Assembly (NCBI GenBank): GCA_947625205.1
Contig: CANQNN010000003.1
Location: 110,674-174,673 of the forward strand
DNA from: an uncultured Lachnospiraceae bacterium
GTDB taxonomy: Bacteria > Bacillota > Clostridia > Lachnospirales > Lachnospiraceae
Length of the DNA stretch: 64,000 nt
Reading direction: 5' to 3'
Shown here piece by piece: positions 44,936 through 60,153 of the stretch. The position numbers were made by a program, and so were the translations under genes. Each line of letters starts with the position of its first letter. The stretch's first letter is position 1. The notes under the pieces are model-generated. The model was not told the DNA's origin. It searched no databases and saw only the letters and a list, made by a program, of their open reading frames with translations.

Positions 44936-45909
44936 TTTAAATATTCCTTATACCAGTCGATCGCCAGTGCAATGCCCTTCTCAAAATCATACTCAGGATC
45001 GTATCCCAACAGCTCTCTTGCCTTGCTGATGTCAGCGTTAGAATCCCGCACGTCGCCTTTGCGCGGCGGTCCGTAATTCGGCCTGACATCTTTGTGAAGC
45101 GCCTTACACAGATGATCATAGATATCGATCAGGTACAGCCTTCCTCCGGCTCCGATATTAAACGCCTGCCCCGCCGCCTCGCCCGAAGCCTTGCAAGCGC
45201 GCAGATTAGCCTCGATCACATTGTCGATATACGTAAAGTCCCTTGACTGCCTGCCATCTCCGTTAATGGTAGGCACCTCACCGTGCAGAAGCTGCTTAAT
45301 AAATTTCGGAATGACCGCGGCATACATCCCCTCCGGGTCCTGCCTGCGTCCGAACACATTGAAATAGCGAAGGCCGTAAGTATCGAGGCCGTACAGCTCC
45401 TTGTACAGTCTTCCGTACTCCTCGTCCACCTTCTTGGTCAGCGCATAGGGAGACAGCACATTGCCCTCCTGTCCTTCTTTCTTGGGCAGCTCCGTGGAAT
45501 CGCCGTAAACCGATGAACTGGAGGCATAGACAAATTTCTTAACACCGTTCTGCCTTGCGGACTCCATCATGTTAAGAGTACCTCTGATATTGATCTCCTC
45601 ATACAGAAGCGGCATCTCAATGCTGCGCGGCACACTGCCCCACGCCGCCTGATTCAGCACATAATCCGCACCCTGTACCGCTTTCGTACAGGTATCCATA
45701 TCCCTGATATCGCCCTCAATGAAGGTAAAGCTTTCATTGGCGGTAAGCGGCTCTATATTCTCATACTTGCCGGTGGAAAGGTTGTCCAGACAGCGCACGG
45801 TATAGCCCATACCGATGAGCGCCTCACAAATATTGGAGCCGATAAAGCCCGCGCCGCCGGTAACCAGAAAAACACTGTCCCTGTCAAATGTAATATCGCG
45901 ATAACCCAC
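44932..45909 (-). CDS. SDR-family nucleotide-sugar 4-epimerase (WbpP/TviC-like, UDP-HexNAc or UDP-HexNAcA)
   Basis: VTGGAGFIGSN Rossmann motif, catalytic SPYALTKKV (YxxxK), ASSSSVYGD, RYFNVFGRRQDP. Apparent GTG start with AAGGAG nine bases upstream. Adjacent to a TviB/WbpO-like dehydrogenase. Confidence 0.75.
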   Translation of the reverse strand: MGYRDITFDRDSVFLVTGGAGFIGSNICEALIGMGYTVRCLDNLSTGKYENIEPLTANESFTFIEGDIRDMDTCTKAVQGADYVLNQAAWGSVPRSIEMPLLYEEINIRGTLNMMESARQNGVKKFVYASSSSVYGDSTELPKKEGQEGNVLSPYALTKKVDEEYGRLYKELYGLDTYGLRYFNVFGRRQDPEGMYAAVIPKFIKQLLHGEVPTINGDGRQSRDFTYIDNVIEANLRACKASGEAAGQAFNIGAGGRLYLIDIYDHLCKALHKDVRPNYGPPRKGDVRDSNADISKARELLGYDPEYDFEKGIALAIDWYKEYLK

Positions 45910-45940
45910 TGTTTCTGTCTCCTTTTGTTCGATAGTCTGA

Positions 45941-47257
45941 TTATAATCTCCAATAGAGATAGTCTTGCGTCATATATTCCTCTTTACTGAGCAGTCCCTT
46001 GATGTCGATCAGGACCTTCTTCTCATTTCCGGGCTTATAGAAGCCGTTTATATCGCTCTTTCCAAGCTTTTTAAACTCCTCGTGCGCCACGGCGACCACC
46101 ACAGCGTCCATATCCCTGACGTCCTCCATACTGCCGAAGGTAATGCCGTACAGACGTTTTGCCTCCGCCGCGTCCGCCGCAGGATCCACCACCAGCGGAC
46201 GGATACCGTACTCGCCAAGCTCGTTGTAGATATCGATCACTTTGGTATTTCTGGTGTCCGGACAGTTCTCCTTAAAGGTAAATCCCAGTATCGCAACCTT
46301 AGCGGTCTTGACGGGAATATTCACCCTGATCAGGTTCTTTACGAGGCTTTCCGCCACATATTTACCCATCTCATCATTGATCCGTCTTCCGGATAAAATA
46401 ATACGCGAGTGATACCCCAGCTCCTCCGATTTATAAGTCAGATAATACGGGTCCACGCCGATACAGTGTCCACCCACCAGACCCGGCCTGAACGGAAGGA
46501 AATTCCACTTGGTGCCCGCCGCCTCAAGAACCTCCAGCGTATCGATGCCCATCTTGTGAAAGATGATGGAAAGCTCGTTCATAAACGCTATGTTGATATC
46601 TCTCTGGCTGTTCTCGATCACTTTGGCCGCCTCGGCTACTTTAATGGACTGCGCACGGTACACGCCGGCATCTACAACAAGCTCGTACACCTTTGCAACC
46701 GTGTCAAGCGTCTCCTCGTCCATGCCGGATACGATCTTGGTGATCGTCTCCAGTCTGTGTACTTTATCCCCCGGATTGATACGTTCCGGTGAATAACCGA
46801 TCTTAAAATCCACACCGCATTTTAGCCCCGACTCCTTCTCCAGAATCGGTACGCAGATATCCTCAGTCACACCCGGATATACGGTCGATTCAAAGACTAC
46901 CACGGAACCTCTGGTCAGATTCTGCCCCAGAATACGGCTGGCGCCCTCCACGGGAGTCAGATCCGGCGTATGATCCGGATTCACCGGCGTGGGAACCGCC
47001 ACAATATGGAATCTGGCTTCCCGTAACCTTGCCGGGTCTGCGGTGAAGTCCACCGTTGTTTTTCTGATCACTTCATCGCCCACTTCCCTGGTGGGATCGA
47101 CGCCGTTCTGATACAGCCTGATCTTTTCCGCATTCAGGTCAAATCCTATCACCTTGATCTTTCTTGCGAAAGCGACCGCGATCGGCATACCTACGTAGCC
47201 CAGGCCGACCAATGATAATTTTTCCTCACCGCTTACTATCTTTTCATACAAATCCAA
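45941..47257 (-). CDS. Nucleotide-sugar 6-dehydrogenase (WbpO/TviB/CapL-like UDP-HexNAc dehydrogenase)
   Basis: LVGLGYVGMPIAVAFA NAD-binding motif and catalytic Cys block GGHCIGVDPYYL. 438 aa. Apparent TTG start; there is no in-frame ATG before the GxGxxG motif. Confidence 0.8.
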   Translation of the reverse strand: MDLYEKIVSGEEKLSLVGLGYVGMPIAVAFARKIKVIGFDLNAEKIRLYQNGVDPTREVGDEVIRKTTVDFTADPARLREARFHIVAVPTPVNPDHTPDLTPVEGASRILGQNLTRGSVVVFESTVYPGVTEDICVPILEKESGLKCGVDFKIGYSPERINPGDKVHRLETITKIVSGMDEETLDTVAKVYELVVDAGVYRAQSIKVAEAAKVIENSQRDINIAFMNELSIIFHKMGIDTLEVLEAAGTKWNFLPFRPGLVGGHCIGVDPYYLTYKSEELGYHSRIILSGRRINDEMGKYVAESLVKNLIRVNIPVKTAKVAILGFTFKENCPDTRNTKVIDIYNELGEYGIRPLVVDPAADAAEAKRLYGITFGSMEDVRDMDAVVVAVAHEEFKKLGKSDINGFYKPGNEKKVLIDIKGLLSKEEYMTQDYLYWRL

Positions 47258-47279: not shown

Positions 47280-48377
47280 CTAGTGTGTATTTATATTCCG
47301 GTGCACTTCGTCCATGTAAGCCGCCGTGATATGCGTCCTGTCAAACTCGCGCTCCATCTTTTCCCGCGCCGCGCGCCCCATATTGCTCCTCTCCTCATAA
47401 GGCAGAGCAAGGAAACGCTGCAATGCCGCGATCAGCGCATTGGCGTCTTTGGGTGCAAAGCCAAAGCCTGTCTTCCCGTCCTCGAAGGTCTCCCTGCAGC
47501 CGCTGATATCAGATGCGATGACCGGTCTTCCGGTGGCTGCGGCTTCCATCAGAGAATTACACATTCCCTCATGATAAGAAGGTATCACGATCGCGCTCGC
47601 CGTCTTCAGATAAGGGTGTACATCCGTGTGAAAACCAAGCTGCCGGATCACGCCTTCCTGTTCCAAGGAATCCAGCATATCCTGATAGTCCTCGTCACAC
47701 GCTCCCAGGATATCAAAGAACACCCGGTCGCTGTGAAGCGCTCTGGCGGCGGCGATGTATTCCAGGATTCCCTTGTCCCTCATCACGCGCCCGACATACA
47801 GAAAATGCGTCTCATCTCCTTCGGGATACGGCTCAAAGCAATGTCTTGTCAGATTAACGCCGGAACCCATGACAAGTCTGTCCCTGTGTCCCTTTATATG
47901 ATATCTGTCAAATATCTGCCTGTTTTCCGCATTCTGGAAAAAAACGCAGTCCGCCTTTCTGATGCCCGCACGATACATACATACGATCAGTCTTAAAAAG
48001 ATCCCCGTCTTTTCAAATGCGGTCCCAAGCCCGGTGACTGTGGAAAGACAGGGTATGTGCATTCTTCCAGCGCAAAAGCCGCCGTATATGTTCGGCTTGA
48101 TCGTGTAGGTAACGACCAGATCCGGTTTTAGCTTTTTCATCAGGCTCCGATAGCTGAGATACAGTCTGGCGTCCTCTAACGGATTCACGCCTCTCCTGTT
48201 TACATCCGTATGTATGACATGCGCTCCCTCGGCACAGATCTCCTTTTTTCTGACCTCGTCCGGCACACTGATATAAACCTCATTTTCCTTTAAGAGAGCT
48301 TCCACAAACTCGTTTCTGAAATCATATAACCCGCCCAGGGAATTGGCGAGTATCAACACCCTTTTTTTCCCAACCAT
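47280..48377 (-). CDS. GT4 family glycosyltransferase (PglA-like subgroup)
   Basis: RVLILANSLGGLYDFRNEFVEALLKENEVYISVPDE and VIPSYHEGMCNSLMEAAATGRPVIASDISGCRETFEDGKTGF. The N-terminal layout resembles C. jejuni PglA as I recall it. Lies near the PglC-like gene. Confidence 0.75.
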   Translation of the reverse strand: MVGKKRVLILANSLGGLYDFRNEFVEALLKENEVYISVPDEVRKKEICAEGAHVIHTDVNRRGVNPLEDARLYLSYRSLMKKLKPDLVVTYTIKPNIYGGFCAGRMHIPCLSTVTGLGTAFEKTGIFLRLIVCMYRAGIRKADCVFFQNAENRQIFDRYHIKGHRDRLVMGSGVNLTRHCFEPYPEGDETHFLYVGRVMRDKGILEYIAAARALHSDRVFFDILGACDEDYQDMLDSLEQEGVIRQLGFHTDVHPYLKTASAIVIPSYHEGMCNSLMEAAATGRPVIASDISGCRETFEDGKTGFGFAPKDANALIAALQRFLALPYEERSNMGRAAREKMEREFDRTHITAAYMDEVHRNINTH

Positions 48378-48435: not shown

Positions 48436-49419
48436 TCAGGGAACGATCTGTCTGCCGTTCATATCCTGTATTCCAATCTCATTATACTTCATCATACAGA
48501 TGTTTTCCATATAGCTGCCGATATTTACGGGATTCTCTCTCCCCTCCAGATTGACGATCACCTGCCCCGGCATGTTCACGCCGCACGCATATGCGTGCGG
48601 ATAACCGCCGCCGAAACGCGGGTTGACCTCCGAGATATAATATACCCCGTCGTTCAGAAAAATATCAACATCTATCATACCGGCAAATCCGCAGGTTTCC
48701 ACAAAATCCCGCAGCAAGTCAAACAGCCGGGGATCCCTGACCGATACCGACTTATCCGTTTCCCCGGCCCGCATCTTGATCTTCTTCTTCACAAAGATGG
48801 ATGTGCATTTTCCCGACTTCATATCCACATACACGTCCGCGCCGTATTCCTGTCCGTGCATATACTCCTGGATCATCAGATCGTCGTACAGCCTAAACAG
48901 CAGCTCGATCTCCTCGTCGCTGTTCGCCTGGTTGATATTGATGCTGGCGCTTCCTTTTACCGGTTTGACAAACACGGGATAAGATATGTCTCCCCTCTCC
49001 AGGGCTTCATAAAATTTCCTCTTGTCCACATAGCACTTTCCGGTCGGGATACCCATTTTCTCCAGCAGACAGAACATGCGATATTTATCGAAGCAGGTCT
49101 CTACCAGATCGTATGGAGAAATAACAGGCGTTGTGCCGATTTCCAGAAAGCGTTCCCGCTCTCTCGCCAGAAGACTCAGCTCCGGATCGATCAGTGAAAA
49201 CACTCCGTCTATATGCTCTTTCCTGCAGATATCCAGTATACAGTCCAGATAACCGGGCTCCGTGATCCTCGGCACGAGATAAAAACGATCCGCCTCATAG
49301 ACGGCAGGCGCCAGATTGGAACAGTCCGTAGCAACGACTCTGCCGTTATCTCCGATCTCTTTTTTAAAATACTGCACTATCTTATTGCGCGTTCCCGCGC
49401 TGAGTATCAAAATATTCAT
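48436..49419 (-). CDS. ATP-grasp domain ligase
   Basis: Start at ATG 49419 (MNILILSAGTRNKIVQYFK). FVKPVKGSASI, MIQEYMHGQEYGADVY and YISEVNPRFGGGYP are typical ATP-grasp (carbamoyl-phosphate-synthase-like) blocks. Confidence 0.7.
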   Translation of the reverse strand: MNILILSAGTRNKIVQYFKKEIGDNGRVVATDCSNLAPAVYEADRFYLVPRITEPGYLDCILDICRKEHIDGVFSLIDPELSLLARERERFLEIGTTPVISPYDLVETCFDKYRMFCLLEKMGIPTGKCYVDKRKFYEALERGDISYPVFVKPVKGSASININQANSDEEIELLFRLYDDLMIQEYMHGQEYGADVYVDMKSGKCTSIFVKKKIKMRAGETDKSVSVRDPRLFDLLRDFVETCGFAGMIDVDIFLNDGVYYISEVNPRFGGGYPHAYACGVNMPGQVIVNLEGRENPVNIGSYMENICMMKYNEIGIQDMNGRQIVP

Positions 49420-49467
49420 CGCAATATTACCTTTCTTCCGGCAGACGCGCATATGACAAAACAGCCG

Positions 49468-50421
49468 TTACCGCCCGGTCAGCCTGTCAAAGTAGAGCGG
49501 CGCGCCGCCCGTGTGGATGAAAAGAACGTCTTTGTCCGCGATCTCATGGCTCCGCAGGTACTCCGTCATCCCGTAAAAGGCTTTGCCAACATAAGTAGTA
49601 TCCATAGGAATACCCTCCAGCGCCATCACCCGGTCGATAAGCCGCTCTACTTCTTCCGTATAGCTGCCGTACCCTTCCAGACGGTATCCGTCCTCAAAGA
49701 TCAGCCTGTCATCCGTATATAGTTTGTCAAAGTCATCCGCCAGATATTCCCGTATACTGTCCTTTACCACATTTCTGCCCCGAGCGGCATCCCTGGCAAT
49801 GCTGATCCCGACGATCTTTCTCTTTCCATCTCCCGAAAGAAGCTGTCCGCAGACAAGACCGGCCTGCGTCGCTCCTGTGCCGGAGGCGTGAAAAATATAA
49901 TCAAAATGCAGACCGGCGCGTTTCTCCTGGCACTCGATCTCACGATAGGCCTTCACATAACTGTCCGTCCCGTGATAACCGTGACCGCCCCCGGCAATAA
50001 AATAGGGGACCTTTCCTTCGGTGCGGTAAGCAGCTTCTCTGCGCCTGATCGTCTCCGCCACCTCCGTGACGGGGCACGTCTCTATGACTGCGCCGAAGCT
50101 TTCTACCAGTCTGGTATTATACAGTCTCTCCCTGTGCTCCGCAGGTGAGATCACATGGCATGCCAGCCCCATAGCCGCCGCCATGTTTGCGATAATGCGG
50201 CAATGGTTGGAGCTGTTGCTCCCATAAGTCATGATGACGTCCGTATCCGTTTTCCGTATATCCCTGTAAAACTCTGCGGCTTTTCTAACCTTATTTCCGC
50301 CAAAGCAAAAGGGGATACAGTCGTCTCTTTTCACAAAAAACCTATTGTGCCCGTACTCGCCCGACAACATCTGGATCGGCGTCTCGTCCAGTTCTCTCTC
50401 AAAGAGTTCTATCTTTCTCAC
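49468..50421 (-). CDS. PLP-dependent enzyme, ACC deaminase/D-cysteine desulfhydrase family (Trp-synthase beta fold)
   Basis: TPIQML...FFVKRDDCIPFCFGGNKVRKAAEF parallels TPIQ...[21 protein letters not shown], which holds the PLP lysine in ACC deaminase. GGGHGYHG and HASGTGATQAGL glycine-rich loops. Apparent GTG start. Confidence 0.65.
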   Translation of the reverse strand: MRKIELFERELDETPIQMLSGEYGHNRFFVKRDDCIPFCFGGNKVRKAAEFYRDIRKTDTDVIMTYGSNSSNHCRIIANMAAAMGLACHVISPAEHRERLYNTRLVESFGAVIETCPVTEVAETIRRREAAYRTEGKVPYFIAGGGHGYHGTDSYVKAYREIECQEKRAGLHFDYIFHASGTGATQAGLVCGQLLSGDGKRKIVGISIARDAARGRNVVKDSIREYLADDFDKLYTDDRLIFEDGYRLEGYGSYTEEVERLIDRVMALEGIPMDTTYVGKAFYGMTEYLRSHEIADKDVLFIHTGGAPLYFDRLTGR

Positions 50422-50423
50422 AC

Positions 50424-51041
50424 TCAGTGTGCCCCCTTGCGATATTTATCAAAATCCTCCACGACCTGATCCGCCCCCGACAGGGTGCCGGAATGCCGCA
50501 ATACTCTGCCAACCGTCATGCCGATTATCTTCAGATCCATGCCAAAAGACAGGCGGTTCACATACTCTAAATCATAGGCAAACCGCTCCTCCCAGCCAAG
50601 CGCATTGCGCCCGTTCACCTGCGCAAGTCCCGTGAGTCCCGGCCGCACATCATGCCTGTGTCTTTCCTCCTCAGTATACCACGGAAGGTATCTGACCAAA
50701 AGCGGACGCGGACCGATCAGGCTCATATCGCCTCTCAGTATATTGACCAGCTCCGGCAGCTCGTCCAAACTGGTGCTTCTCAGCTTCTTCCCGAACGGGG
50801 TAAGCCTCACTTCGTCGGGAAGCAGTTCTCCCTTTTCATTACGGGCGTCATTCATGGAGCGGAATTTGTACAAATGAAAGATCTTTTCATCTTTTCCGGG
50901 CCTTTCCTGCTTAAAAATAACAGGTGATCCCAATTTGATCCTTACCAGAACAGCCAGGATCAAATACACGGGAGAAAGCACGATGATGCCGCACAAAGAT
51001 ATAACGATATCCAGTATCCTCTTGACATACTTCCGATACAT
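50424..51041 (-). CDS. Small monotopic phosphoglycosyl transferase (PglC/WcfS-like initiating enzyme)
   Basis: Start at ATG 51041 (MYRKYVKRILDIVISLCGIIVLSP), preceded by AAGGAG. SPVIFKQERPGKDEKIFHLYKFRSM, DELPELVNILRGDMSLIGPRP, PGLTGLAQVNGRN. About 205 aa with a single N-terminal helix, the PglC architecture. Confidence 0.85.
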   Translation of the reverse strand: MYRKYVKRILDIVISLCGIIVLSPVYLILAVLVRIKLGSPVIFKQERPGKDEKIFHLYKFRSMNDARNEKGELLPDEVRLTPFGKKLRSTSLDELPELVNILRGDMSLIGPRPLLVRYLPWYTEEERHRHDVRPGLTGLAQVNGRNALGWEERFAYDLEYVNRLSFGMDLKIIGMTVGRVLRHSGTLSGADQVVEDFDKYRKGAH

Positions 51042-51104
51042 TTCTTTCTCCTTACCGCGGATTCTCCATCCGCTGTTACCGATCACGCTATGCCGCGCCG
51101 CAGA

Positions 51105-52238
51105 CTACCTTCCGAAACACTTCCGTACCATACCGATGATCAGTTCCATATCTTCCGGCGTGTTCTTGATATCGCTCGGCAGGCACAATCCCCTGTCAAA
51201 AATGTCTGCGCCCACGCTGCTGCCGTCATCATTGTGCGGAATAAAATCATAAGGTTCAAAAACCGGCTGTAAGTGCATCGGCTTCCAAATCGGTCTGGTT
51301 TCAATATTTTCCTGTGCCAAGGCATCCATGACCTGATCCGGCGTCACATCGCTATCTCCGTCGATCGTCATGCAGGACAGCCAGCAGTTGGCGTCCCCAT
51401 CCGGATTGAGAGGATTCATTGTGATCTCCTCTATATCCGCAAACGCGTTGCTGTACTGCGCATAGATCGCTTTCTTTAGCATTTTATGCTCTTCCAGATG
51501 CATAAGCTGGCCCCGTCCGATGCCCGCCGTAACATTGCTCATACGGTAATTATATCCGATCTGTGAGTGCTGGTAATGTCTTGCCGGATCGCGTGCCTGC
51601 GTCGCCAGAAAAGTAGCCTTTTTTACTGCCTCCTCGTCTTTCGACACAAGCATGCCGCCGCCGGAAGTGGTGATGATCTTGTTGCCGTTAAAAGAATATA
51701 TGCCGTATATGCCGTAAGTACCGGTATATTTTCCTCTGTAGGTGCTCCCCAGAGACTCTGCGGCATCCTCTATGAGCGGCACGTTATGCTGTGCGCAGAT
51801 CTCCATGATCTCATCCAGCTTCGCCGGCGTTCCATATAAATGCACACAGATCACCGCTTTGGGATGAGGATATTTTTCAAATGCCTTCCTGAGTGCCGCA
51901 GGGGACATATTCCACGTGTCAGGCTCCGCATCGATAAACACCGGCACAGCGTTTTCGTATACAATAGGATTACAAGACGCTGAAAATGTCAGATCCGATA
52001 CAAATACAACGTCTCCGTGACCGATACCCAACAGTTTGAGCGACAGATGAATGGCCGCAGTACCCGAATCAAGAGCCGCCGCATGACCGCAATCCGTATA
52101 TGCCTCCATCTCTCTCTCAAAAGCATTGACATTGGGACCCAGGGGGGCTATCCAGTTTGTGTCAAAGGCCTCCTGCACATATTTCTGTTCATCGCCGTGC
52201 ATGGTGGGACTCGACAGATATATTCTCTTCCGTTCCAT
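51105..52238 (-). CDS. DegT/DnrJ/EryC1/StrS family aminotransferase (PglE-like)
   Basis: IYLSSPTMHGDEQKYVQEAFDTNWIAPLGPNVNAFE and YSFNGNKIITTSGGGMLV (PLP lysine block). AAGGAGG SD. Sits between the PglF-like and PglC-like genes. Confidence 0.85.
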   Translation of the reverse strand: MERKRIYLSSPTMHGDEQKYVQEAFDTNWIAPLGPNVNAFEREMEAYTDCGHAAALDSGTAAIHLSLKLLGIGHGDVVFVSDLTFSASCNPIVYENAVPVFIDAEPDTWNMSPAALRKAFEKYPHPKAVICVHLYGTPAKLDEIMEICAQHNVPLIEDAAESLGSTYRGKYTGTYGIYGIYSFNGNKIITTSGGGMLVSKDEEAVKKATFLATQARDPARHYQHSQIGYNYRMSNVTAGIGRGQLMHLEEHKMLKKAIYAQYSNAFADIEEITMNPLNPDGDANCWLSCMTIDGDSDVTPDQVMDALAQENIETRPIWKPMHLQPVFEPYDFIPHNDDGSSVGADIFDRGLCLPSDIKNTPEDMELIIGMVRKCFGR

Positions 52239-52291
52239 AATTGCTCCTCCTTGTTGATACCGCTGCGCCGGATTTCACGGCATTACGCCTC

Positions 52292-54172
52292 TCATTCATC
52301 CGCCGGACTGTGATAGGTCGGAACGATCTCTTTGATGAGGGGTCTGATATCGGAATTCTCGATCTGGCACTCATCCTTTAATTTTTTCAGCTGGGCGAAA
52401 AATTTCTGTTCATCGATCTCGATCGGTCTGCCGATATAGATCATCTTATTAGCCGTTTCTTTCATGCCCTCTTCGTCCAGCAGCAATTCTTCAAACAGCT
52501 TCTCCCCCGGCCGCAGACCCGTAAATTCGATCTGTATATCTTCCCCCACGCGGTAGCCCGACAGCTTGATCAGATTTTCGGCCAGATCCAATATTCTGAC
52601 CGGTTCCCCCATATCCAGCACAAATATCTCGCCGCCCTTCGCATAGGCGCCCGCCTGCAGCACAAGAGATACCGCCTCCGGTATCGTCATAAAATAACGA
52701 ATAATATCGGGGTGCGTCACTGTCACAGGGCCGCCCGCCTCGATCTGCTTACGAAACAGCGGAATAACGCTGCCGTTGCTGCCAAGCACATTGCCGAACC
52801 GAACCGCCACAAATTCCGTATCGTAATGTTTGTCAAACGTCTGAATAATCATCTCACAGATACGTTTGCTGGCGCCCATAATATTGGTAGGGTTCACTGC
52901 CTTGTCCGTAGAGATCATCACAAAGCGCTGCACGCCGCTCATCGCCGCTGCCTGCGCGGTCTTAAAGGTGCCGAATACATTATTCTTAATCGCCTCCGTG
53001 GGGCTGTCTTCCATAAGGGGAACATGCTTATGCGCCGCCGCGTGATACACGATATCCGGTTTGTATTTTGAAAAAATATAATTCATGCGGTTGGTGTTGC
53101 GCACAGAAGCGATCAATACGACCAGATCAAGATCCGGAAAATGTGCCTTCAACTCCTGCTGCACATCGTACACCGCATTCTCGTAAATATCCACTATGAC
53201 AAGCCGTTTAGGCTTATGAGACGCTATCTGTCTGCACAATTCGCTGCCGATGGACCCGCCGCCACCCGTGACCAGTATCACCTTGCCCTGTACGTAGCCC
53301 AGAATGGAATCCATATCAACGCTGACAGGGTCCCTTCCCAGCAGATCCTCCACTTCCACATCCCGCAGTTTACTGATATTAACTTCCCCGTTTACGAGCT
53401 GATACATACCAGGAAGAGAGCGCAGTTTGCAGTTTGTGTCCTTACAGATCTCAAGTATCTTCCTGATCTCCGCTCTGCTTGCGGAGGGCATGGCGACAAT
53501 GATCTCATCTACGCCATAGACATCGGCGCACTCCACGATCTTCTCCCTTCCGCCTACGACCTTGATCCCCTGAATATATCTGCCCCATTTTCCCTTATCA
53601 TCATCAATGATACATTTGATGACCATTGTGGAGAAGTTACTGTTGACGATCTCTTTAATGATCACATTCGCCGCTTCACCCGCGCCGATCACCATAACTG
53701 AGATCAGGTTTTTCTTATTCTGCTGCTTATGCTTAAGACTTCTGAAAAACCGGTAAGAAAAACGGCTGGCAAAAATGCAGGTGATCAGAAGGAACATATA
53801 CAGGAAGTAATAACTCTTCGGCACCGGCTGTGAGGCCACCTTGACAAACTGAAGCGCAATACTGTGGACTGCTGTAGACAGCACACAGGATATGACAATG
53901 TTCTGCAGCTCCGTCTCGCCGGCAAACGCCCACAAGCTGCTGTACAGGTGAAAGACGTAAAATATCAGAAGCGTTATGACGACATTGATCGGCATGACGC
54001 GCTCGATCGGCTGCATAAAGTGTGAAGGTATCAGATGGATCGCAAATTCGTAACGCATCAGAATAGCAAGATAACTTGCCAGAATAATGCTGATGATATC
54101 ATAAACGATCAGGCATGTCCTTCTGTAAAATATTTTAACATTAAATGTTTTTCTCTTATTATCCTTATTCAT
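52292..54172 (-). CDS. Membrane-bound UDP-HexNAc 4,6-dehydratase (CapD/PglF/WbpM family)
   Basis: Four N-terminal TM segments. First Rossmann VMVIGAGEAANVI. Second, ILVTGGGGSIGSEL, with HAAAHKHVP and STDKAVNPTNIMGASKR blocks. Start set to ATG 54172 (MNKDNKRK), an 8 nt overlap with the upstream gene. Confidence 0.85.
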   Translation of the reverse strand: MNKDNKRKTFNVKIFYRRTCLIVYDIISIILASYLAILMRYEFAIHLIPSHFMQPIERVMPINVVITLLIFYVFHLYSSLWAFAGETELQNIVISCVLSTAVHSIALQFVKVASQPVPKSYYFLYMFLLITCIFASRFSYRFFRSLKHKQQNKKNLISVMVIGAGEAANVIIKEIVNSNFSTMVIKCIIDDDKGKWGRYIQGIKVVGGREKIVECADVYGVDEIIVAMPSASRAEIRKILEICKDTNCKLRSLPGMYQLVNGEVNISKLRDVEVEDLLGRDPVSVDMDSILGYVQGKVILVTGGGGSIGSELCRQIASHKPKRLVIVDIYENAVYDVQQELKAHFPDLDLVVLIASVRNTNRMNYIFSKYKPDIVYHAAAHKHVPLMEDSPTEAIKNNVFGTFKTAQAAAMSGVQRFVMISTDKAVNPTNIMGASKRICEMIIQTFDKHYDTEFVAVRFGNVLGSNGSVIPLFRKQIEAGGPVTVTHPDIIRYFMTIPEAVSLVLQAGAYAKGGEIFVLDMGEPVRILDLAENLIKLSGYRVGEDIQIEFTGLRPGEKLFEELLLDEEGMKETANKMIYIGRPIEIDEQKFFAQLKKLKDECQIENSDIRPLIKEIVPTYHSPADE

Positions 54173-56714
54173 GATTCTGTGTCGTCCTCTGTCTATCAAA
54201 AAGAAGGGGCGTCATTGCCACCAGAAGGCTGCAAGTCGTCGGATTACAGGGGTGAAAGATCCACTCCGTCAGTCCCGCAACGGCAAACATGACTAGAATG
54301 GCGATCGGCAAAGATGCGCATACCCTGTCTTCTTTATGCTTATGATAATAAACCGCAGACTGTACCAATGTACAGACCCCCAGCAGAATAAACGCAATAC
54401 CTACCGGTATACCGTGGTCATAAGCTACCTGAAGATAAATATTGTGTGCATGAACAGTGTAGGTGCCATCCGGCTCCATAATATCCATATCATCATGACC
54501 GTTCCGGTTTAAACGGCTCAGATACAGCTTAAATATATCCATTCGGCCATTGGCATAAGACCTGACGGCATCGCCTTCCGCCTCCTCGCACTGCGCCGGG
54601 ATCTCCACCGGAACATTTTCTGTGGACGCAAGCAGTATGGGATCCGCGCAGGCAAGCATGCTGTCCGGTGTATTAACATACCCTGCCGATTCATCCAAAA
54701 ATTCTATCTCCTCATTGCCGTTCATATAAAAGGGCGCAACAAGAGATTCTTCCTCCGGTATGCCAAGTATCTTCATCTGAAACACCTGTATAAACCTCAT
54801 CGGCGTCATATAGTAAAAGGAATCCATATCCCGCCCGTGCATGATCTCCGAGGGAAGCTCTTCTATCTCAAACACGACCGGTCTGGCAACAAGCGCCGGG
54901 AGCATTCTCTGCGCTGTAAATGTTATCGGAAAGCACAACACAAAAGCAGCCAGTATCATCCCGACGGCACGTATCATACTGCGCCATCTGTGCGCAAACG
55001 AAAAGCATACGATGGGAATCACGACCGCCGCCACAACAACCGCTGCAATATATCCGGTTCTGGACATTGTAAGCAGCAGATATACTGACGCTACGCCGAG
55101 CAGAAGCAGCTCCTTATATACATATGCCAGACGCCTGTTTCTTCTGTAAGCGTCCAGGAACTTCACAAGCGCCGCACATACCACAAGCGTCAGATACACG
55201 CCCGTTATCGTTACGGTGTGGAAAGTAAAGGGGTATCTGGAATATATAAAAAACATATACGGCCTGTGAAGCAGACAATATATTACCATCGCCCCAAAAT
55301 GGAGCAGGATACCGTTACAGAGATTCCCCAACAGCATGGCTTTGCCGTCCCATGCCGCCATGTTCAGATAAAACAGCGCAAAACAGCATACCAGATAGAC
55401 CGGCCATCCTCTGGTGTTGCGGCGCCATATGATCAGGACAAAGAAAACCGCCACCGGGATCCAGTACCAGACAGATATATCTCTGATCTGGCGGCGCACT
55501 AAAAAGCGGATCGTGCCGATTATGACGACTCCCGCCAGCACCCCGGCCCAAACCGTAAGCTTCAGGGCCAGGATCTCCATATCACCGGGGGCTTCCATGT
55601 CTGCAAGCAAACCATTATAATAGCGCAGGCCCACCGTTGCTGCCGCAACAGCATAGATCAGATTCACCCAGTTAAATATATCCCTGCCTCTGTATGTCAC
55701 GATCACAGCCAACGCCAGAAAGATCAGCTGCTGCCTGTAGGCAATGGTATGATACATCTCATACAGGCCATTCACATAATTGCAGCACGCCCAAATCGCA
55801 CCGGCGAAGAAAAAAGACTGCAGATAATTACGCCAGTTCCCGCATACGGCACCCAGAACAGTTCTGTCCGACATGAAGCCTGTCCTGTCATGATTGACGG
55901 CATAAAACAGGACTGCGGCCGCCAGAACAATGCCTGCGATCAGAAAAACGGCGGTCACCGTATCCTGTCTGGGCGTGAACAGTCCACACGGCCATACGGC
56001 TGTCATCGCCACCGCAGCGCCGATCACAATGAGCGGATTGCAAACCGTTTTTACCGTCTTCTCCACTGTGACAAGATGGTCACGTTCCTGTTTCTTCCCA
56101 TAATAGGTGTACGTGATACGGCTGACAAGGAAGCCCGCCAATATAAGAACGGCGGCGCACAACAGTGTCTTTCCTTTCCGAAGCGGCATACTGTACTCAT
56201 ATTTTGTGATGATGCAGTGTTCCGTATCTTCCACATTACCATAGTAGAGTGTGCCGTTATATATATTGCCCGAATCCTCTGTATTTTCATACGCTACGCG
56301 AAAAGAAGAATCCAGTCCCTGTATCAGATAATAATATTCCCTGCCGACTTCAGCATCGATATTGACCTGCACGGTACAGAATCCCGGAATCGCTTCCATA
56401 CCTTCCGTGTCAATGACCTGCTGCATAATAATATTCATCCGGGCATCATAGAGGACAAAATTAAATTTCTCGCCGACTGTGCCCTGTGTAAAATAAATAT
56501 CGATATTTTTCAGCCGGTCATACTGTGCGATAAACATCTGCTGCACCACATAGTCCGATGTGATCGCCTCAGACTCCATGACCGCCTGCGCGCGGCTGCC
56601 GGATACTACCGTCTCCTGTACGAGTCGCAGCGGCCACAGTGAAAAGACCGCGCACAGGACAAAGACCCACACAGTCGCACGAATTGCCTGACTTTTATTT
56701 ATGATCCTGTTCAT
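54165..56714 (-). CDS. Large Wzy_C-domain membrane protein (O-antigen ligase/polymerase/O-oligosaccharyltransferase family)
   Basis: About 849 aa. One TM, then a ~180 aa extracytoplasmic domain, then more than 12 TM. LLTMSRTGYIAAVVV and VHAHNIYLQVAYDHGIPVGIAFILLG match the SRxG and H-x-H-N-x-x-L...G-x-x-G blocks of the Wzy_C family. ATG 56714 (MNRIINK) has AAGGTG upstream; the track start 56720 is a GTG. Confidence 0.65.
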   Translation of the reverse strand: MNRIINKSQAIRATVWVFVLCAVFSLWPLRLVQETVVSGSRAQAVMESEAITSDYVVQQMFIAQYDRLKNIDIYFTQGTVGEKFNFVLYDARMNIIMQQVIDTEGMEAIPGFCTVQVNIDAEVGREYYYLIQGLDSSFRVAYENTEDSGNIYNGTLYYGNVEDTEHCIITKYEYSMPLRKGKTLLCAAVLILAGFLVSRITYTYYGKKQERDHLVTVEKTVKTVCNPLIVIGAAVAMTAVWPCGLFTPRQDTVTAVFLIAGIVLAAAVLFYAVNHDRTGFMSDRTVLGAVCGNWRNYLQSFFFAGAIWACCNYVNGLYEMYHTIAYRQQLIFLALAVIVTYRGRDIFNWVNLIYAVAAATVGLRYYNGLLADMEAPGDMEILALKLTVWAGVLAGVVIIGTIRFLVRRQIRDISVWYWIPVAVFFVLIIWRRNTRGWPVYLVCCFALFYLNMAAWDGKAMLLGNLCNGILLHFGAMVIYCLLHRPYMFFIYSRYPFTFHTVTITGVYLTLVVCAALVKFLDAYRRNRRLAYVYKELLLLGVASVYLLLTMSRTGYIAAVVVAAVVIPIVCFSFAHRWRSMIRAVGMILAAFVLCFPITFTAQRMLPALVARPVVFEIEELPSEIMHGRDMDSFYYMTPMRFIQVFQMKILGIPEEESLVAPFYMNGNEEIEFLDESAGYVNTPDSMLACADPILLASTENVPVEIPAQCEEAEGDAVRSYANGRMDIFKLYLSRLNRNGHDDMDIMEPDGTYTVHAHNIYLQVAYDHGIPVGIAFILLGVCTLVQSAVYYHKHKEDRVCASLPIAILVMFAVAGLTEWIFHPCNPTTCSLLVAMTPLLFDRQRTTQNHE

Positions 56715-56819
56715 TATCACACCTTGTCAAAAAATTATTACGTTTCAGTATATCATAAACGGATTATTTTTACAATCAAGCCTGCGTTATATACGCAAAA
56801 ATACACATAAATACTGGCA

Positions 56820-58631: not shown

Positions 58632-59602
58632 ATTTCTTTGGTTCTTTCCTCATCTGCAGCCGCCGACCCACCGCCGGCATTGATGCATTCACTGATGACG
58701 TACTGGGGAGAGCTGTTGAGTGATATATAGATCCTCCCGATATATTCTCCGATCATGCCGAGCATGATCATGATCATACCGCCGATAAAAACAAGCATCG
58801 CCATCATTGCGCTGAATCCGACCGGCACATCCGGATTGACAAACTTCTTGATCACCGTATAAACGCCATACAGGAATCCTGCACAGGCAGACATAAAACC
58901 AACGACTGTTGCAATGCGCAAGGGTTTAATACTGAAAGCGGTAAAGCCGTTAAACCATAATCCAAGCAGCTTGCCGACCGTGTAGCCGGAGACCCCGTTT
59001 TCTCTCTCCCGGTGCGTCACATCCACATTGGTAATATTTTTCGTGGTGCGCAGTACCAGTCCGATCACATACGGATAAGGATTCTTATACCGCAGCATCT
59101 CTTCCACCACAAACCTGCGTACCGCAAAATAGCTGGATACATACAATTCTTTAGGCTTTCCGAGCATTACCCGCGTCATCAGTTCATTGATCCTGCTGCC
59201 AAAATTGCGAAACCCCGAATGGCGCTTGTGGGTATACCTTGCATAGACCACATCAAATCCCTCTTCGATCCCGGCAAGCAGTTTGCCCACCTCATCGGCC
59301 GGCGTCTGCCCGTCATCATCAAGACACACTGCCACATCTCCGTGCACATAACCAAAGCCCGCCATAAGCGCCGCATGCTGTCCAAAATTCTTCGCCAGAT
59401 TAACACCGCAAATATCCTTCCGTCCGGCGCAGAGTCCGCGTATCACATCATATGTCGCATCGGGCGAACCGTCATTGACAAGCACGATCTCATAATCATA
59501 TGCGTCCATACCCTTCATCGTTGCATCGATCTCGTCAACCACCTTACCGATCGTCTGTGCCGAACGATAACACGGTATTACAAAACTGACCAGTTTCTTC
59601 AT
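58628..59602 (-). CDS. GT2 polyprenyl-phosphate glycosyltransferase (GtrB/ArnC/CsbB-like)
   Basis: Start at ATG 59602 (MKKLVSFVIPCYRSAQTIGKVV; ATGA overlap). VLVNDGSPDAT, CLDDDGQTP. Two C-terminal TM helices (LRIATVVGFMSACAGFLYGVY, AMMAMLVFIGGMIMIMLGMIGEYIG). Confidence 0.8.
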   Translation of the reverse strand: MKKLVSFVIPCYRSAQTIGKVVDEIDATMKGMDAYDYEIVLVNDGSPDATYDVIRGLCAGRKDICGVNLAKNFGQHAALMAGFGYVHGDVAVCLDDDGQTPADEVGKLLAGIEEGFDVVYARYTHKRHSGFRNFGSRINELMTRVMLGKPKELYVSSYFAVRRFVVEEMLRYKNPYPYVIGLVLRTTKNITNVDVTHRERENGVSGYTVGKLLGLWFNGFTAFSIKPLRIATVVGFMSACAGFLYGVYTVIKKFVNPDVPVGFSAMMAMLVFIGGMIMIMLGMIGEYIGRIYISLNSSPQYVISECINAGGGSAAADEERTKEI

Positions 59603-60153
59603 GATTCCTCCGTTTCTGCGCCGTCTGCCATGCATTTTTCTTCCCAGCTGCCTCTGTCGATCTCCATAAAGAGCACCTTTCGCTCCCCCTGCGGCGTCAT
59701 CGCCGTTTCTTGCCTGTCCGTCATATGAAATCCGGCCCGCTCATAGCTTTTGCGTGCTCCGGTATTATCCGCCAGGAAACGCAAAAATACTCTGTCAAGC
59801 CCCAGTTTGTCAAAGGCATACGCCAGGGCATCTTTGGCCGCCGCAGTTCCATAGCCATGCCCCACGGCATCTTTTTCCCCGATAAATATCCCATACTCGG
59901 CAACGGCCCGCTCTCTGTCGATATCCCGGAAATACACGCTGCCGACAGCCCGTCCGTCCGGCAGACATATGATAAACTGCACCACATGTCCGGGAAGGAC
60001 CTGTGTGCGGACCCATTCCAGATGTCCCTCCTTCGTGAAAGGCTTCTGATATATAAAATTCCGGCGAACCCATTCCTGATTGCGCCACTTCACGATCTGT
60101 TCCGTATCTTCTATCGCCATCGGACGAAGATAGACTGCCTGTACCTGTTTCAA
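59599..60153 (-). CDS. GNAT family N-acetyltransferase (PseH/RimL-like, sugar-amine acetyltransferase candidate)
   Basis: VYLRPMAIEDTEQIVKWRNQEWVRRNF...TKEGHLEW follows the N-terminal pattern I recall for PseH-type enzymes. GHGYGTAAAKDALAYAF is the acetyl-CoA loop region. TTG start with GGAGG five bases upstream. Confidence 0.65.
   Translation of the reverse strand: MKQVQAVYLRPMAIEDTEQIVKWRNQEWVRRNFIYQKPFTKEGHLEWVRTQVLPGHVVQFIICLPDGRAVGSVYFRDIDRERAVAEYGIFIGEKDAVGHGYGTAAAKDALAYAFDKLGLDRVFLRFLADNTGARKSYERAGFHMTDRQETAMTPQGERKVLFMEIDRGSWEEKCMADGAETEES

What the first reader, a model, noticed from the sequence alone, without database searches (positions are those of the whole stretch)
48436..54172. 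pgl-like 4-amino-4,6-dideoxy-HexNAc initiation block carrying an ATP-grasp ligase and an ACC-deaminase-family PLP enzyme where an N-acetyltransferase is expected
Seen in sequence: the block is contiguous and on one strand. It encodes a membrane CapD/PglF-type 4,6-dehydratase, a DegT/PglE-type aminotransferase and a small PglC-type phosphoglycosyl transferase. Next come a PLP enzyme with the GGNKxRK lysine block, an ATP-grasp ligase and a PglA-like GT4 (47280-48377). No left-handed beta-helix (PglD-type) acetyltransferase lies in the block; the only acetyltransferase in the window is the GNAT at 59599-60153. Established knowledge: PglF/E/D/C and WcfR/WcfS-type sets yield Und-PP-diNAcBac or Und-PP-AATGal, and ATP-grasp enzymes form amide bonds through acyl-phosphates. 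Inference: the ATP-grasp enzyme may attach an amino acid to the 4-amino group or to a uronate carboxyl, and the neighbouring PLP enzyme may make or edit that amino acid. Alternatively the amine stays free; combined with the uronic acids encoded next door, that would give a zwitterionic polysaccharide of the B. fragilis PSA or pneumococcal type 1 kind. To my knowledge, this PLP plus ATP-grasp pairing inside a pgl-like block is not a described pathway.
Basis: partly seen in the sequence, partly recalled or inferred. Interest (0 to 1): 0.72.

Follow-up and report, generated by a model that had tools for sequence, protein, structure and literature searches.

The report
ATP-grasp/PLP-tailored amino-sugar starter block
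A gut Lachnospiraceae bacterium starts a surface sugar chain with a 4-amino sugar that is probably capped by an ATP-driven ligase helped by a vitamin-B6 enzyme, not by the usual acetyltransferase; the ligase trick is known, but its B6 partner is conserved across several bacterial phyla and is undescribed in the literature I could search.

Summary
Six co-directional minus-strand genes encode a PglF-type dehydratase, a PglE/LegC-type aminotransferase, a small PglC-type phosphoglycosyltransferase, an ACC-deaminase/D-cysteine-desulfhydrase-family PLP enzyme, a PylC-like ATP-grasp ligase and a GT4. No hexapeptide acetyltransferase was found in the window.

The PLP/ATP-grasp pair is not a stray cassette. 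PglC–PLP–ATP-grasp are consecutive in 73 of 74 related loci. Distant copies of the pair sit beside sugar 4-aminotransferases in Providencia, Proteus, Sphingobium, Polaribacter and Cyclobacterium. Homologues occur fused to the transferase, to GNAT acetyltransferases, or to each other.

The pair persists in loci with no uronic-acid genes, so it tracks the 4-amino sugar rather than uronates.

"ATP-grasp instead of PglD" is already described: Bacillus cereus Pyl (UDP-Yelosamine) and Neisseria PglB2 (GATDH).

Most likely the ATP-grasp enzyme N-acylates the C4 amine, and the PLP enzyme supplies a non-standard acid, probably an amino acid. The identity of that acid is unknown.

Verdict: a new variant of a known kind, with moderate interest (0.5).

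The parts
52292..54199 (-). PglF/WbpM-type membrane UDP-GlcNAc 4,6-dehydratase (probable start at the ATG at 54172)
   Evidence: Polysacc_synt_2 at 411 bits plus CoA_binding_3. TDK...Mx3K motif in the sequence (motif from PMC8987622). 45-90% identical in 67 related loci.
51105..52238 (-). PglE/LegC-type PLP sugar 4-aminotransferase
   Evidence: DegT_DnrJ_EryC1 at 318 bits. TIGR04181 LegC family at 373 bits, below its cut-off of 420. Present upstream in 71/73 loci.
50424..51086 (-). Small monotopic PglC-type phosphoglycosyltransferase (probable start at the Met at 51041)
   Evidence: Bac_transf at 210 bits. 49% identical to the transferase half of the transferase/ATP-grasp fusion P0279. 41% identical to the transferase half of the transferase/PLP fusion P0378. 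Upstream of the PLP gene in 77/77 loci.
49468..50421 (-). Fold-type II PLP enzyme of the ACC-deaminase/D-cysteine-desulfhydrase family, in a glycan-associated subfamily with a GGGH signature
   Evidence: PALP at 103 bits. Every NCBIfam equivalog is below its cut-off. Best solved relatives are 7YSK, 4D8T and 1J0A. AlphaFold pLDDT 85; Foldseek TM 0.82-0.85 to D-cysteine desulfhydrase. Lys44 and all PLP motifs are kept, and His147 is subfamily-specific. The GTG start lies 2 nt after the PglC stop and is preceded by AAGGGGG.
48436..49452 (-). ATP-grasp carboxylate-amine ligase (PRK12767 'carbamoyl-phosphate-synthase-like' family; probable true start at 49419)
   Evidence: PylC-like_N at 139 bits plus ATP-grasp_3. 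NF009406 at 499 bits against a cut-off of 271. Full-length match to the solved structure 2PN1 (323 bits, E 1.8e-95). 50% identical to the ATP-grasp half of fusion P0279. An RBS-like GGAAGAAAGG precedes the second ATG. Downstream of the PLP gene in 75/76 loci.
47280..48377 (-). GT4 glycosyltransferase that probably adds the second sugar (PglA-like position)
   Evidence: Glycos_transf_1 plus Glyco_trans_4_2. Follows the ATP-grasp gene in 63/72 loci.
59599..60153 (-). GNAT (Acetyltransf_3, PseH-like); a possible but unproven accessory of the pathway
   Evidence: Best NCBIfam hit is PseH at 71.9 bits, below its cut-off of 93.1. 29-31% identical to the GNAT lying between the PLP and ATP-grasp genes in Sphingobium and to the GNAT half of the GNAT/PLP fusion P0363. 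In Lachnospiraceae loci, however, it always accompanies the ArnC-like GT2 (28/28), and 16 of 19 loci with at least 9 kb of upstream sequence and no GT2 hit also have no GNAT hit.

Best explanation
The block builds and loads the first, lipid-linked sugar of a cell-surface polymer.

Proposed steps:
1. The PglF-like dehydratase and the PglE/LegC-like aminotransferase convert UDP-GlcNAc to a UDP-2-acetamido-4-amino-2,4,6-trideoxyhexose. These steps are inferred from family membership.
2. The C4 amine is not acetylated by a PglD-type enzyme. It is amidated by the ATP-grasp ligase, which activates a carboxylic acid as an acyl-phosphate. This is inferred from the B. cereus Pyl and Neisseria PglB2 precedents and from gene context and fusions.
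3. The ACC-deaminase-family PLP enzyme, always encoded immediately upstream of the ligase, supplies or edits that acid. My best guess is a non-standard amino acid, for example a D-amino acid made by racemisation or epimerisation. In many lineages a GNAT would then N-acetylate it. A 2-oxo acid made by alpha,beta-elimination and ligated as Pyl ligates 2-oxoglutarate is the main sub-alternative. This step is speculative.
4. PglC transfers the finished phospho-sugar to undecaprenyl phosphate, and the GT4 extends it.
For: 1. Family assignments of all six proteins.
2. No LbH acetyltransferase in the window. L054-type loci have neither a GNAT nor an LbH acetyltransferase in 21 kb, so the ligase is the only candidate N-acylating enzyme there.
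3. Published precedent for an ATP-grasp ligase acting on UDP-4-amino-6-deoxy-HexNAc: Pyl/UDP-Yelosamine (PMC11626204; title) and PglB2/GATDH (PMC11130364).
4. Synteny: PglC-PLP-ATP-grasp is consecutive in 73/74 loci, drawn from 501 matching species genomes.
5. Cross-phylum recurrence of the PLP-then-ATP-grasp pair next to a DegT aminotransferase. It is seen in an E. coli IncR plasmid and Providencia (RmlB, RmlA, Wzx, DegT, GNAT, PLP, ATP-grasp), Proteus, Sphingobium, Polaribacter and Cyclobacterium.
6. Rosetta-stone fusions among homologues:
   - transferase + ATP-grasp (P0279; 49% and 50% identical to the two window proteins)
   - transferase + PLP (P0378)
   - ATP-grasp + PLP (P0374; P0405, with an L-amino-acid-ligase C-terminal domain)
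   - GNAT + PLP (many)
7. Relatives of the ligase in Priestia and Segatella have a HAD hydrolase instead of the PLP enzyme beside the transferase and aminotransferase. That fits a variable acid-supplying partner.
8. Catalytic motifs are intact: EVNPRFGGG in the ligase; Lys44, SNH and HTGG in the PLP enzyme.
Against: - No biochemical or glycan-structure data exist for any member of the PLP-coupled subfamily.
- I could not obtain the Pyl or PglB2 sequences, so orthology to either is untested.
- Characterised members of the PLP family are deaminating eliminases (D-cysteine desulfhydrase, ACC deaminase, cysteate sulfo-lyase), not racemases. The 'D-amino acid' role rests only on the family's handling of D-substrates and on the GNAT and L-amino-acid-ligase fusions.
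- In the window's own lineage the GNAT travels with a separate WecE/ArnC-like/DUF6020 module, and 16 of 19 loci with at least 9 kb of upstream sequence and no GT2 hit also lack a GNAT hit. The N-acetyl-aminoacyl model therefore may not apply here.
- PglC-type transferases that accept free-amine sugars exist, so the ligase could act later or elsewhere.
Confidence: 0.6

Rival explanations
1. A sub-variant of the main model. The PLP enzyme is a conventional alpha,beta-eliminating deaminase that makes a 2-oxo acid (pyruvate or 2-oxobutyrate). The ATP-grasp enzyme ligates that 2-oxo acid to the 4-amine exactly as Pyl ligates 2-oxoglutarate, giving an N-(2-oxoacyl) sugar that may later be reduced.
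For: - Closest solved and curated relatives of the PLP enzyme all release 2-oxo acids: D-cysteine desulfhydrase, ACC deaminase and CuyA.
- Pyl uses a 2-oxo acid.
- Lachnospiraceae loci can lack a GNAT.
Against: - Pyruvate is abundant, so a dedicated enzyme is hard to justify.
- The recurrent GNAT/PLP fusions and the fusion of PLP to an L-amino-acid-ligase-type ATP-grasp suggest the product keeps an amino group.
- The subfamily has its own signature (GGGH) and scores below every equivalog cut-off.
Confidence: 0.2
2. The ATP-grasp enzyme amidates a uronic-acid carboxyl (the GalNAcA made by the neighbouring TviB/TviC-like enzymes) with an amino acid or amine prepared by the PLP enzyme. This would parallel capsule amidoligases and TupA-type enzymes.
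For: - Uronic-acid genes lie directly downstream in the window and in 52/67 related loci.
- ATP-grasp amidation of uronates is an established kind of chemistry (my own knowledge).
Against: - The pair persists with PglF/E/C in L054-type loci that have no uronic-acid genes in 21 kb.
- In the E. coli plasmid, Polaribacter and Sphingobium cassettes the constant partner is a sugar aminotransferase.
- Close homologues are fused to the phosphoglycosyltransferase.
- The window already has two asparagine-synthase-type amidotransferases that could handle uronates.
Confidence: 0.08
3. The 4-amine stays free, or is acetylated by the PseH-like GNAT. The PLP/ATP-grasp pair then does something not attached to the sugar, for example making a small peptide or metabolite used elsewhere in envelope synthesis. 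A zwitterionic PSA/Sp1-type polymer would result if the amine is free.
For: - The window GNAT's best curated match is PseH, a 4-N-acetyltransferase of a UDP-4-amino sugar.
- Aminotransferase-plus-transferase pairs that give free-amine sugars are known (my own knowledge of B. fragilis WcfR/WcfS).
Against: - The GNAT tracks the ArnC-like GT2/DUF6020 module and lies in the same upstream gene run as a WecE equivalog, separated from it by one unannotated gene.
- Strict adjacency and the fusions of both PLP and ATP-grasp to the transferase argue for action on the transferase's substrate.
- Loci lacking any GNAT still keep the pair.
Confidence: 0.1
4. The pair is an unrelated amino-acid metabolism cassette that sits inside the locus by accident.
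For: Generic annotations only: 'pyridoxal-phosphate dependent enzyme' and 'carbamoyl phosphate synthase-like'.
Against: Consecutive PglC-PLP-ATP-grasp order in 73/74 loci, recurrence in other phyla, and domain fusions.
Confidence: 0.02

Closest known systems
Bacillus cereus ATCC 14579 Pat/Pyl pathway to UDP-Yelosamine (Hwang et al. 2014, J Biol Chem 289:35620; cited in PMC11626204 and PMC8987622)
   Same: - UDP-GlcNAc-derived 4-keto sugar, DegT-type 4-aminotransferase, then an ATP-grasp carboxylate-amine ligase that N-acylates the C4 amine of the UDP-sugar.
- The genes sit directly beside a small phosphoglycosyltransferase.
- There is no acetyl-CoA-dependent N-acetyltransferase.
   Different: - Pyl uses 2-oxoglutarate, the aminotransferase's own by-product, and has no reported PLP (fold-type II) partner.
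- Here an ACC-deaminase-family enzyme is obligatorily paired with the ligase, and the acid is unknown.
Neisseria meningitidis PglB2 (GATDH pathway; Chamot-Rooke et al. 2007, as reviewed in PMC11130364)
   Same: - An ATP-grasp domain replaces the acetyltransferase domain in a pgl block. It gives a 4-N-acyl (glyceramido) instead of a 4-N-acetyl trideoxyhexose on undecaprenyl diphosphate.
- The same transferase/ATP-grasp fusion architecture exists among close homologues of the window proteins (P0279).
   Different: - In the window the ligase and transferase are separate genes with a PLP enzyme between them.
- The Neisseria acyl group is glycerate, and no PLP partner is mentioned in the reviews read.
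- Neisseria uses the glycan for O-linked protein glycosylation.
Campylobacter/Neisseria PglF-PglE-PglD-PglC diNAcBac pathway
   Same: The dehydratase, aminotransferase and small transferase, and a following GT4 (PglA position), are all present and in one operon-like run.
   Different: The defining PglD left-handed beta-helix acetyltransferase is absent. The PLP enzyme and ATP-grasp ligase occupy that step.
D-cysteine desulfhydrase / ACC deaminase / cysteate sulfo-lyase (fold-type II PLP)
   Same: - Same fold (Foldseek TM 0.80-0.85).
- Catalytic lysine, SNH motif, phosphate loop, and the Tyr and HTGG motifs are conserved.
   Different: - Only about 30% identity, and below every curated equivalog cut-off.
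- Subfamily-specific GGGH loop, with Val after the conserved Tyr.
- Always encoded in glycan loci and often fused to a GNAT, an ATP-grasp domain or the transferase.
B. fragilis PSA / pneumococcal type 1 zwitterionic polysaccharide initiation (WcfR/WcfS-type)
   Same: A 4-aminotransferase plus a small phosphoglycosyltransferase start a uronic-acid-containing polymer in a gut bacterium.
   Different: Those systems leave the 4-amine free and have no ligase. Here a dedicated ATP-grasp/PLP pair argues for acylation.

Membership tests
Pgl-type diNAcBac initiation block (PglF/PglE/PglD/PglC) | Membrane PglF/WbpM-type UDP-GlcNAc 4,6-dehydratase with the TDK...Mx3K catalytic motif | tested here: met
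   Polysacc_synt_2 at 411 bits plus CoA_binding_3. STDKAVNPTNIMGASK in the sequence. Motif definition from PMC8987622 Table 1.
Pgl-type diNAcBac initiation block (PglF/PglE/PglD/PglC) | DegT/PglE-type C4 aminotransferase | tested here: met
   DegT_DnrJ_EryC1 at 318 bits. LegC-family TIGR04181 at 373 bits, just under its cut-off of 420. C4 stereochemistry is not determinable.
Pgl-type diNAcBac initiation block (PglF/PglE/PglD/PglC) | PglD-type left-handed beta-helix N-acetyltransferase | tested here: not met
   No Hexapep hit in any major ORF of the window.
Pgl-type diNAcBac initiation block (PglF/PglE/PglD/PglC) | Small monotopic phosphoglycosyltransferase | tested here: met
   220 aa, Bac_transf at 210 bits. 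LDELPE and PRP motifs in the sequence.
ATP-grasp ligases that N-acylate NDP-4-amino sugars (Pyl / PglB2 C-terminal domain) | ATP-grasp fold with intact nucleotide/Mg motifs | tested here: met
   PylC-like_N plus ATP-grasp_3. Full-length match to 2PN1 (323 bits, E 1.8e-95). KP...E...EVNPRFGGG present.
ATP-grasp ligases that N-acylate NDP-4-amino sugars (Pyl / PglB2 C-terminal domain) | Encoded beside, or fused to, the phosphoglycosyltransferase and a sugar 4-aminotransferase | tested here: met
   Synteny in 73/74 loci. Fusion P0279. Cross-phylum contexts.
ATP-grasp ligases that N-acylate NDP-4-amino sugars (Pyl / PglB2 C-terminal domain) | Sequence orthology to characterised Pyl (Bc5272) or PglB2 | not tested
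   Neither sequence could be retrieved with the tools, and the papers were not held.
ATP-grasp ligases that N-acylate NDP-4-amino sugars (Pyl / PglB2 C-terminal domain) | ATP-dependent amide formation on the C4 amine | not testable with these tools
   Needs an enzyme assay.
ACC deaminase / D-cysteine desulfhydrase family | Fold-type II PLP fold with the Schiff-base lysine | tested here: met
   PALP at 103 bits. Foldseek TM 0.85 to 7YSL. Lys44 is invariant.
ACC deaminase / D-cysteine desulfhydrase family | Score above the curated equivalog cut-off for DcyD, ACC deaminase, CuyA or XcbE | tested here: not met
   Best is CuyA at 178 bits against 450. ACC_deam_rel scores 172 against 289. DcyD scores 128 against 429.
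Zwitterionic polysaccharide initiation (free 4-amino sugar) | No enzyme available to acylate the 4-amine | tested here: not met
   A ligase is encoded two genes downstream of the aminotransferase and directly after the PLP gene that follows the transferase. Whether it actually acts on the amine is unproven.
Uronic-acid amidoligase systems | Co-occurrence with uronic-acid biosynthesis genes | tested here: not met
   The pair is present in L054-type loci with no UDP-sugar dehydrogenase in 21 kb.

The most novel reading that the evidence does not exclude
The PLP/ATP-grasp pair, with a GNAT in many lineages, defines a widespread and uncharacterised pathway to a new class of N-acyl 4-amino-4,6-dideoxy sugars. 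The acyl group could be a D-aminoacyl, dehydro-aminoacyl or 2-oxoacyl group. This would give the ACC-deaminase fold a biosynthetic role, for example as a racemase or epimerase. In gut Lachnospiraceae the sugar would seed an unusually conserved envelope polymer, possibly carrying a free amine and therefore zwitterionic.
Probability: 0.3. Interest if true: 0.7.

Novelty: new variant of a known kind. Interest (0 to 1): 0.5.

Why it matters
- **Unassigned glycan chemistry.** N-acyl groups on 4-amino-6-deoxy sugars are major antigenic determinants. From my own knowledge these include amino-acyl, hydroxyacyl and oxoacyl groups in Proteus, Providencia, E. coli, Vibrio and Pseudoalteromonas O antigens. 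The enzymes that install most of them are unassigned.
- **A candidate explanation.** A conserved PLP + ATP-grasp (+ GNAT) cassette would explain a share of that chemistry. It would also assign a biosynthetic function to a branch of the ACC-deaminase family.
- **Practical reagent value.** It would give phosphoglycosyltransferase researchers a new UDP-sugar substrate to make.
- **Relevance to the gut.** In Lachnospiraceae the whole locus is conserved at about 60-90% protein identity across dozens of species. That is unusual for surface-polysaccharide loci and marks the polymer as a probable core envelope component of abundant gut commensals.

Tried and rejected
1. **Primary papers.** I tried to read Hwang 2014 (PMC4271244), Chamot-Rooke 2007 (PMC1976187) and Viburiene 2013 (PMC3719539). 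None is held. Pyl, PglB2 and the Neisseria 'ORF8' next to pglB2 could therefore not be compared by sequence.
2. **Literature searches.**
   - Combining ATP-grasp with capsule, uronic acid, amide or O-antigen cluster terms gave nothing.
   - 'cysteine desulfhydrase + ATP-grasp + aminotransferase + polysaccharide + gene cluster' gave zero papers.
   - The Proteus O-antigen genetics paper does not mention the module.
3. **E. coli chromosomes.** I looked for the Providencia-type cassette in order to tie it to a known O-antigen structure. It occurs on only four plasmids, in both near and distant mode.
4. **2PN1 as a member of the PLP-coupled subfamily.** Its Exiguobacterium orthologue lies in a polysaccharide locus but has no PLP neighbour.
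5. **The window GNAT as the obligate third partner.** I rejected this as obligate because it tracks the ArnC-like GT2/DUF6020 module and is absent from many loci that keep the pair.
6. **The downstream ArnA-like formyltransferase (43251-44171) as the missing N-acylase.** I rejected this because it is present in only 33 of 80 loci, whereas the pair is essentially universal.
7. **Structure prediction and Foldseek of the PLP enzyme.** This only reconfirmed the D-cysteine desulfhydrase / ACC deaminase fold and gave no functional discrimination.

Full report
**1. The observation**

The region lies in a 64 kb window made up almost entirely of minus-strand glycan-biosynthesis genes. GC is about 50% and GC skew is uniformly negative.

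They belong to the stated families:
- **52292-54199:** a PglF/WbpM-type membrane dehydratase. It scores 411 bits on Polysacc_synt_2 and has a CoA_binding_3 N-terminal region. It carries the TDK...Mx3K motif that PMC8987622 lists for PglF-type enzymes.
- **51105-52238:** a DegT aminotransferase closest to the LegC/PglE group.
- **50424-51086:** a 220-aa Bac_transf phosphoglycosyltransferase.
- **49468-50421:** a PALP-family enzyme with GGNKVRK.
- **48436-49452:** an ATP-grasp protein with a PylC-like N-domain. It passes the curated NF009406 model ('carbamoyl phosphate synthase-like protein', 499 bits against 271).
- **47280-48377:** a GT4.

The PLP gene starts 2 nt after the PglC stop, behind a purine-rich RBS. 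The ATP-grasp gene probably starts at its second ATG (49419), also behind an RBS-like stretch.

I scanned every major ORF of the window with Pfam. No hexapeptide acetyltransferase was found, and the GNAT at 59599-60153 is the only acetyltransferase hit.

**2. Is the PLP/ATP-grasp pair part of the block?**

Yes.

*Distribution of the PLP protein.*
- It has thousands of close relatives, mostly from Lachnospiraceae metagenome bins, annotated only as 'pyridoxal-phosphate dependent enzyme'.
- A motif scan of one genome per species found 501 genomes (of 185,579) that encode a relative.

*Synteny in the 80 best loci* (50-88% identical PLP; Lachnospiraceae plus a few Clostridium, Anaerovibrio and Paludibacteraceae bins), from tblastn with the window's proteins:

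| Neighbour of the PLP gene | Loci with it / loci with room |
|---|---|
| PglC upstream | 77/77 |
| ATP-grasp downstream | 75/76 |
| PglC-PLP-ATP-grasp consecutive | 73/74 |
| PglE | 71/73 |
| PglF | 65/68 |
| GT4 | 63/72 |
| TviB-like dehydrogenase | 52/67 |

*Loci without uronic-acid genes.* A divergent group (L054, L055, L061, L066-L068, L070, L072) keeps PglF-PglE-PglC-PLP-ATP-grasp but no TviB or GT4a homologue is detected after the ATP-grasp gene. In L054, the one scanned with Pfam, a GT4 and an FnlA/B/C (L-FucNAc) set follow. L054 has no UDP-sugar dehydrogenase and no GNAT anywhere in its 21 kb. The pair therefore tracks the 4-amino-sugar genes, not the uronic acids.

**3. The pair outside Firmicutes**

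tblastn against plasmids found the same PLP-then-ATP-grasp pair, at 32-36% identity, in two settings:
- An IS-flanked O-antigen fragment on E. coli IncR plasmids. The order is epimerase, RmlB, RfbA, Wzx, DegT, GNAT, PLP, ATP-grasp, GT.
- A Sphingobium plasmid. The order is GT4, phosphoglycosyltransferase, PLP, GNAT, ATP-grasp, DegT, O-antigen-ligase family, Wza, Wzc.

It is absent from all E. coli chromosomes in the collection.

Relatives of the plasmid PLP protein occur in Providencia, Proteus, Vibrio, Pseudoalteromonas and Photobacterium. Gene contexts:
- Providencia alcalifaciens has the same cassette as the plasmid.
- Proteus mirabilis has DegT, GT2, PLP, ATP-grasp, Hexapep at the cpxA end of two different O-antigen clusters.
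- Polaribacter and Cyclobacterium have Wzx, DegT, a GNAT-PLP fusion protein, then ATP-grasp. In Cyclobacterium a WecF-like GT56 follows.

The constant neighbour in every case is a DegT-type sugar aminotransferase.

**4. Fusions**

An exhaustive search of 1.84 billion cluster representatives gave 299 relatives at E <= 1e-30. Many of the best have extra domains. Pfam shows:

| Protein | Architecture | Identity to window proteins |
|---|---|---|
| P0363 | GNAT (Acetyltransf_3) + PLP | PLP half 50%; GNAT half 31% to the window GNAT |
| P0372, P0388, P0423, P0399 | PLP + GNAT | not measured |
| P0374 | ATP-grasp + PLP | PLP half 42% |
| P0405 | ATP-grasp with an L-amino-acid-ligase C-terminal domain + PLP | PLP half 40% |
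| P0378 | phosphoglycosyltransferase + PLP | transferase half 41% to window PglC |
| P0364 | VanZ + PLP | PLP half 46% |

A search seeded with the solved homologue 2PN1 turned up P0279. It is a phosphoglycosyltransferase + ATP-grasp fusion, 49% and 50% identical to the two window proteins, and it is followed by a CapK_C-DegT fusion. This is the architecture of Neisseria PglB2.

These fusions tie the PLP enzyme, the ligase, the GNAT and the transferase to one pathway.

**5. What is known**

- Neisseria PglB2 is 'ATP grasp/phosphoglycosyl-transferase'. It makes glyceramido-acetamido-trideoxyhexose instead of diNAcBac (PMC11130364; PMC6959607).
[quoted passage not shown] Pyl is encoded directly beside a small phosphoglycosyltransferase (PMC11626204; reference titles).
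- The idea of an ATP-grasp ligase replacing the N-acetyltransferase is therefore established.
- Other relatives of the ligase, in Priestia and Segatella copri, sit with an aminotransferase, a transferase and a HAD hydrolase instead of a PLP enzyme. This suggests a general scheme of a ligase plus a variable enzyme that supplies the acid.
- I found no paper describing the ACC-deaminase-family partner. The paper library is limited to open-access texts.

**6. The PLP enzyme**

- It is about 30% identical to D-cysteine desulfhydrases (7YSK, 4D8T) and to the Pyrococcus ACC-deaminase homologue (1J0A).
- An AlphaFold model (pLDDT 85) superposes on these at TM 0.80-0.85.
- All PLP-binding motifs are kept.
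- It scores below every curated equivalog cut-off.
- Together with the proteobacterial, Sphingobium and Marinimicrobia glycan-locus members, it shares a GGGH loop where the solved enzymes have GGGS or PGGA.
- Its reaction cannot be deduced from sequence. The GNAT fusions and the fusion to an L-amino-acid-ligase-type ATP-grasp point to a product that keeps an amino group. A free amine is also what PLP chemistry requires of its substrate.
- The family's known handling of D-substrates makes a racemase or epimerase role a reasonable guess, but no more than that. An eliminase that feeds a 2-oxo acid to a Pyl-like ligase is the main alternative.

**7. The GNAT in this window**

Its best curated match is PseH, below cut-off. 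It lies in a run consisting of YfhO, a WecE equivalog (631 bits against 375), an unknown 587-aa protein, the GNAT, an ArnC-like GT2 and DUF6020. This looks like a separate lipid-carrier side-branch module for a 4-acetamido-6-deoxy sugar.

In related loci the GNAT always accompanies that GT2 (28/28). Of 19 loci with at least 9 kb of upstream sequence and no GT2 hit, 16 also have no GNAT hit, so many loci keep the PLP/ATP-grasp pair without it. In this lineage the GNAT is at most an optional partner. If the acid is an amino acid, its amine may remain free here.

**8. Verdict**

The most likely mechanism is as follows:
1. The dehydratase and aminotransferase make the UDP-4-amino sugar.
2. The ATP-grasp ligase N-acylates it with an acid supplied by the PLP enzyme.
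3. PglC loads the product onto undecaprenyl phosphate.
4. The GT4 extends it.

My confidence is about 0.6 for the ligase step and much lower for the PLP role.

This is a new variant of a known kind (Pyl / PglB2-type N-acylation). It is notable for the unassigned PLP partner, its spread across several bacterial phyla and its strong conservation in gut Lachnospiraceae.

Noticed in passing
window 56820-63999: A separate module: YfhO C-terminus (63142-63999), a WecE equivalog aminotransferase (61929-63176; 631 bits against cut-off 375), an unknown 587-aa protein with no family hit (60156-61919), a PseH-like GNAT, an ArnC-like GT2 (58628-59635) and DUF6020 (56820-58631). It looks like a lipid-carrier, extracytoplasmic side-branch glycosylation system for a 4-acetamido-4,6-dideoxyhexose. 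No RmlA or RmlB is present in the window.
   Followed up: partly
window 32600-47257: TviB-like and TviC-like enzymes, a DUF2334 (deacetylase-like) protein, an ArnA-N-like formyltransferase (43251-44171) and two asparagine-synthase-like amidotransferases (37061-38968, 32600-34483). This resembles the gene set for GalNAcA, N-formyl-GalNA and uronamide residues, as in P. aeruginosa O6 (my own recollection). The formyltransferase and DUF2334 are variably present across related loci.
   Followed up: partly
window 1-31500: A second glycan locus with its own large WbaP-type phosphoglycosyltransferase (18548-19960). It also has a pyruvyl transferase (14148-15404), a WecG/TagA-GT4 fusion (6029-7930), a radical-SAM/SPASM protein (3788-4834), two GT11 fucosyltransferase-like genes, a GT17-like gene and an ABC exporter (28699-30498). 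A short plus-strand island at 20086-23156 coincides with the only GC-skew reversal.
   Followed up: no
window 54165-56720: An 851-aa polytopic protein with only a weak Wzy_C hit. It overlaps the start of the PglF gene and is conserved upstream of PglF in 56/63 related loci at 26-66% identity.
   Followed up: no
L001-L058 (related loci): The whole arrangement of about 14 genes (GNAT, GT2, DUF6020, Wzy-like, PglF, PglE, PglC, PLP, ATP-grasp, GT4, TviB, TviC ...) is kept across dozens of Lachnospiraceae species at roughly 60-90% protein identity. That is unusually stable for a surface-polysaccharide locus and suggests a core envelope polymer rather than a variable capsule.
   Followed up: partly
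L081 (E. coli plasmid NZ_LR890610.1, locus 2972-13534): A Providencia-like O-antigen fragment carrying the DegT-GNAT-PLP-ATP-grasp cassette sits between ISAs1/IS5 and other transposase genes on small IncR plasmids of four human E. coli isolates. It is on no E. coli chromosome in the collection.
   Followed up: yes
L085 and L086 (Proteus mirabilis), 7800-12890: DegT, GT2, PLP, ATP-grasp and Hexapep are identical at the cpxA end of two otherwise different O-antigen clusters. One has ribitol-phosphate-type genes and the other does not. The five genes may therefore serve a modification shared between serogroups.
   Followed up: no
P0364; L090 7408-8993: VanZ-like membrane domains recur with this system. 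There is a VanZ+PLP fusion protein, and a VanZ-like gene lies directly upstream of the Exiguobacterium orthologue of the solved ATP-grasp structure 2PN1.
   Followed up: no
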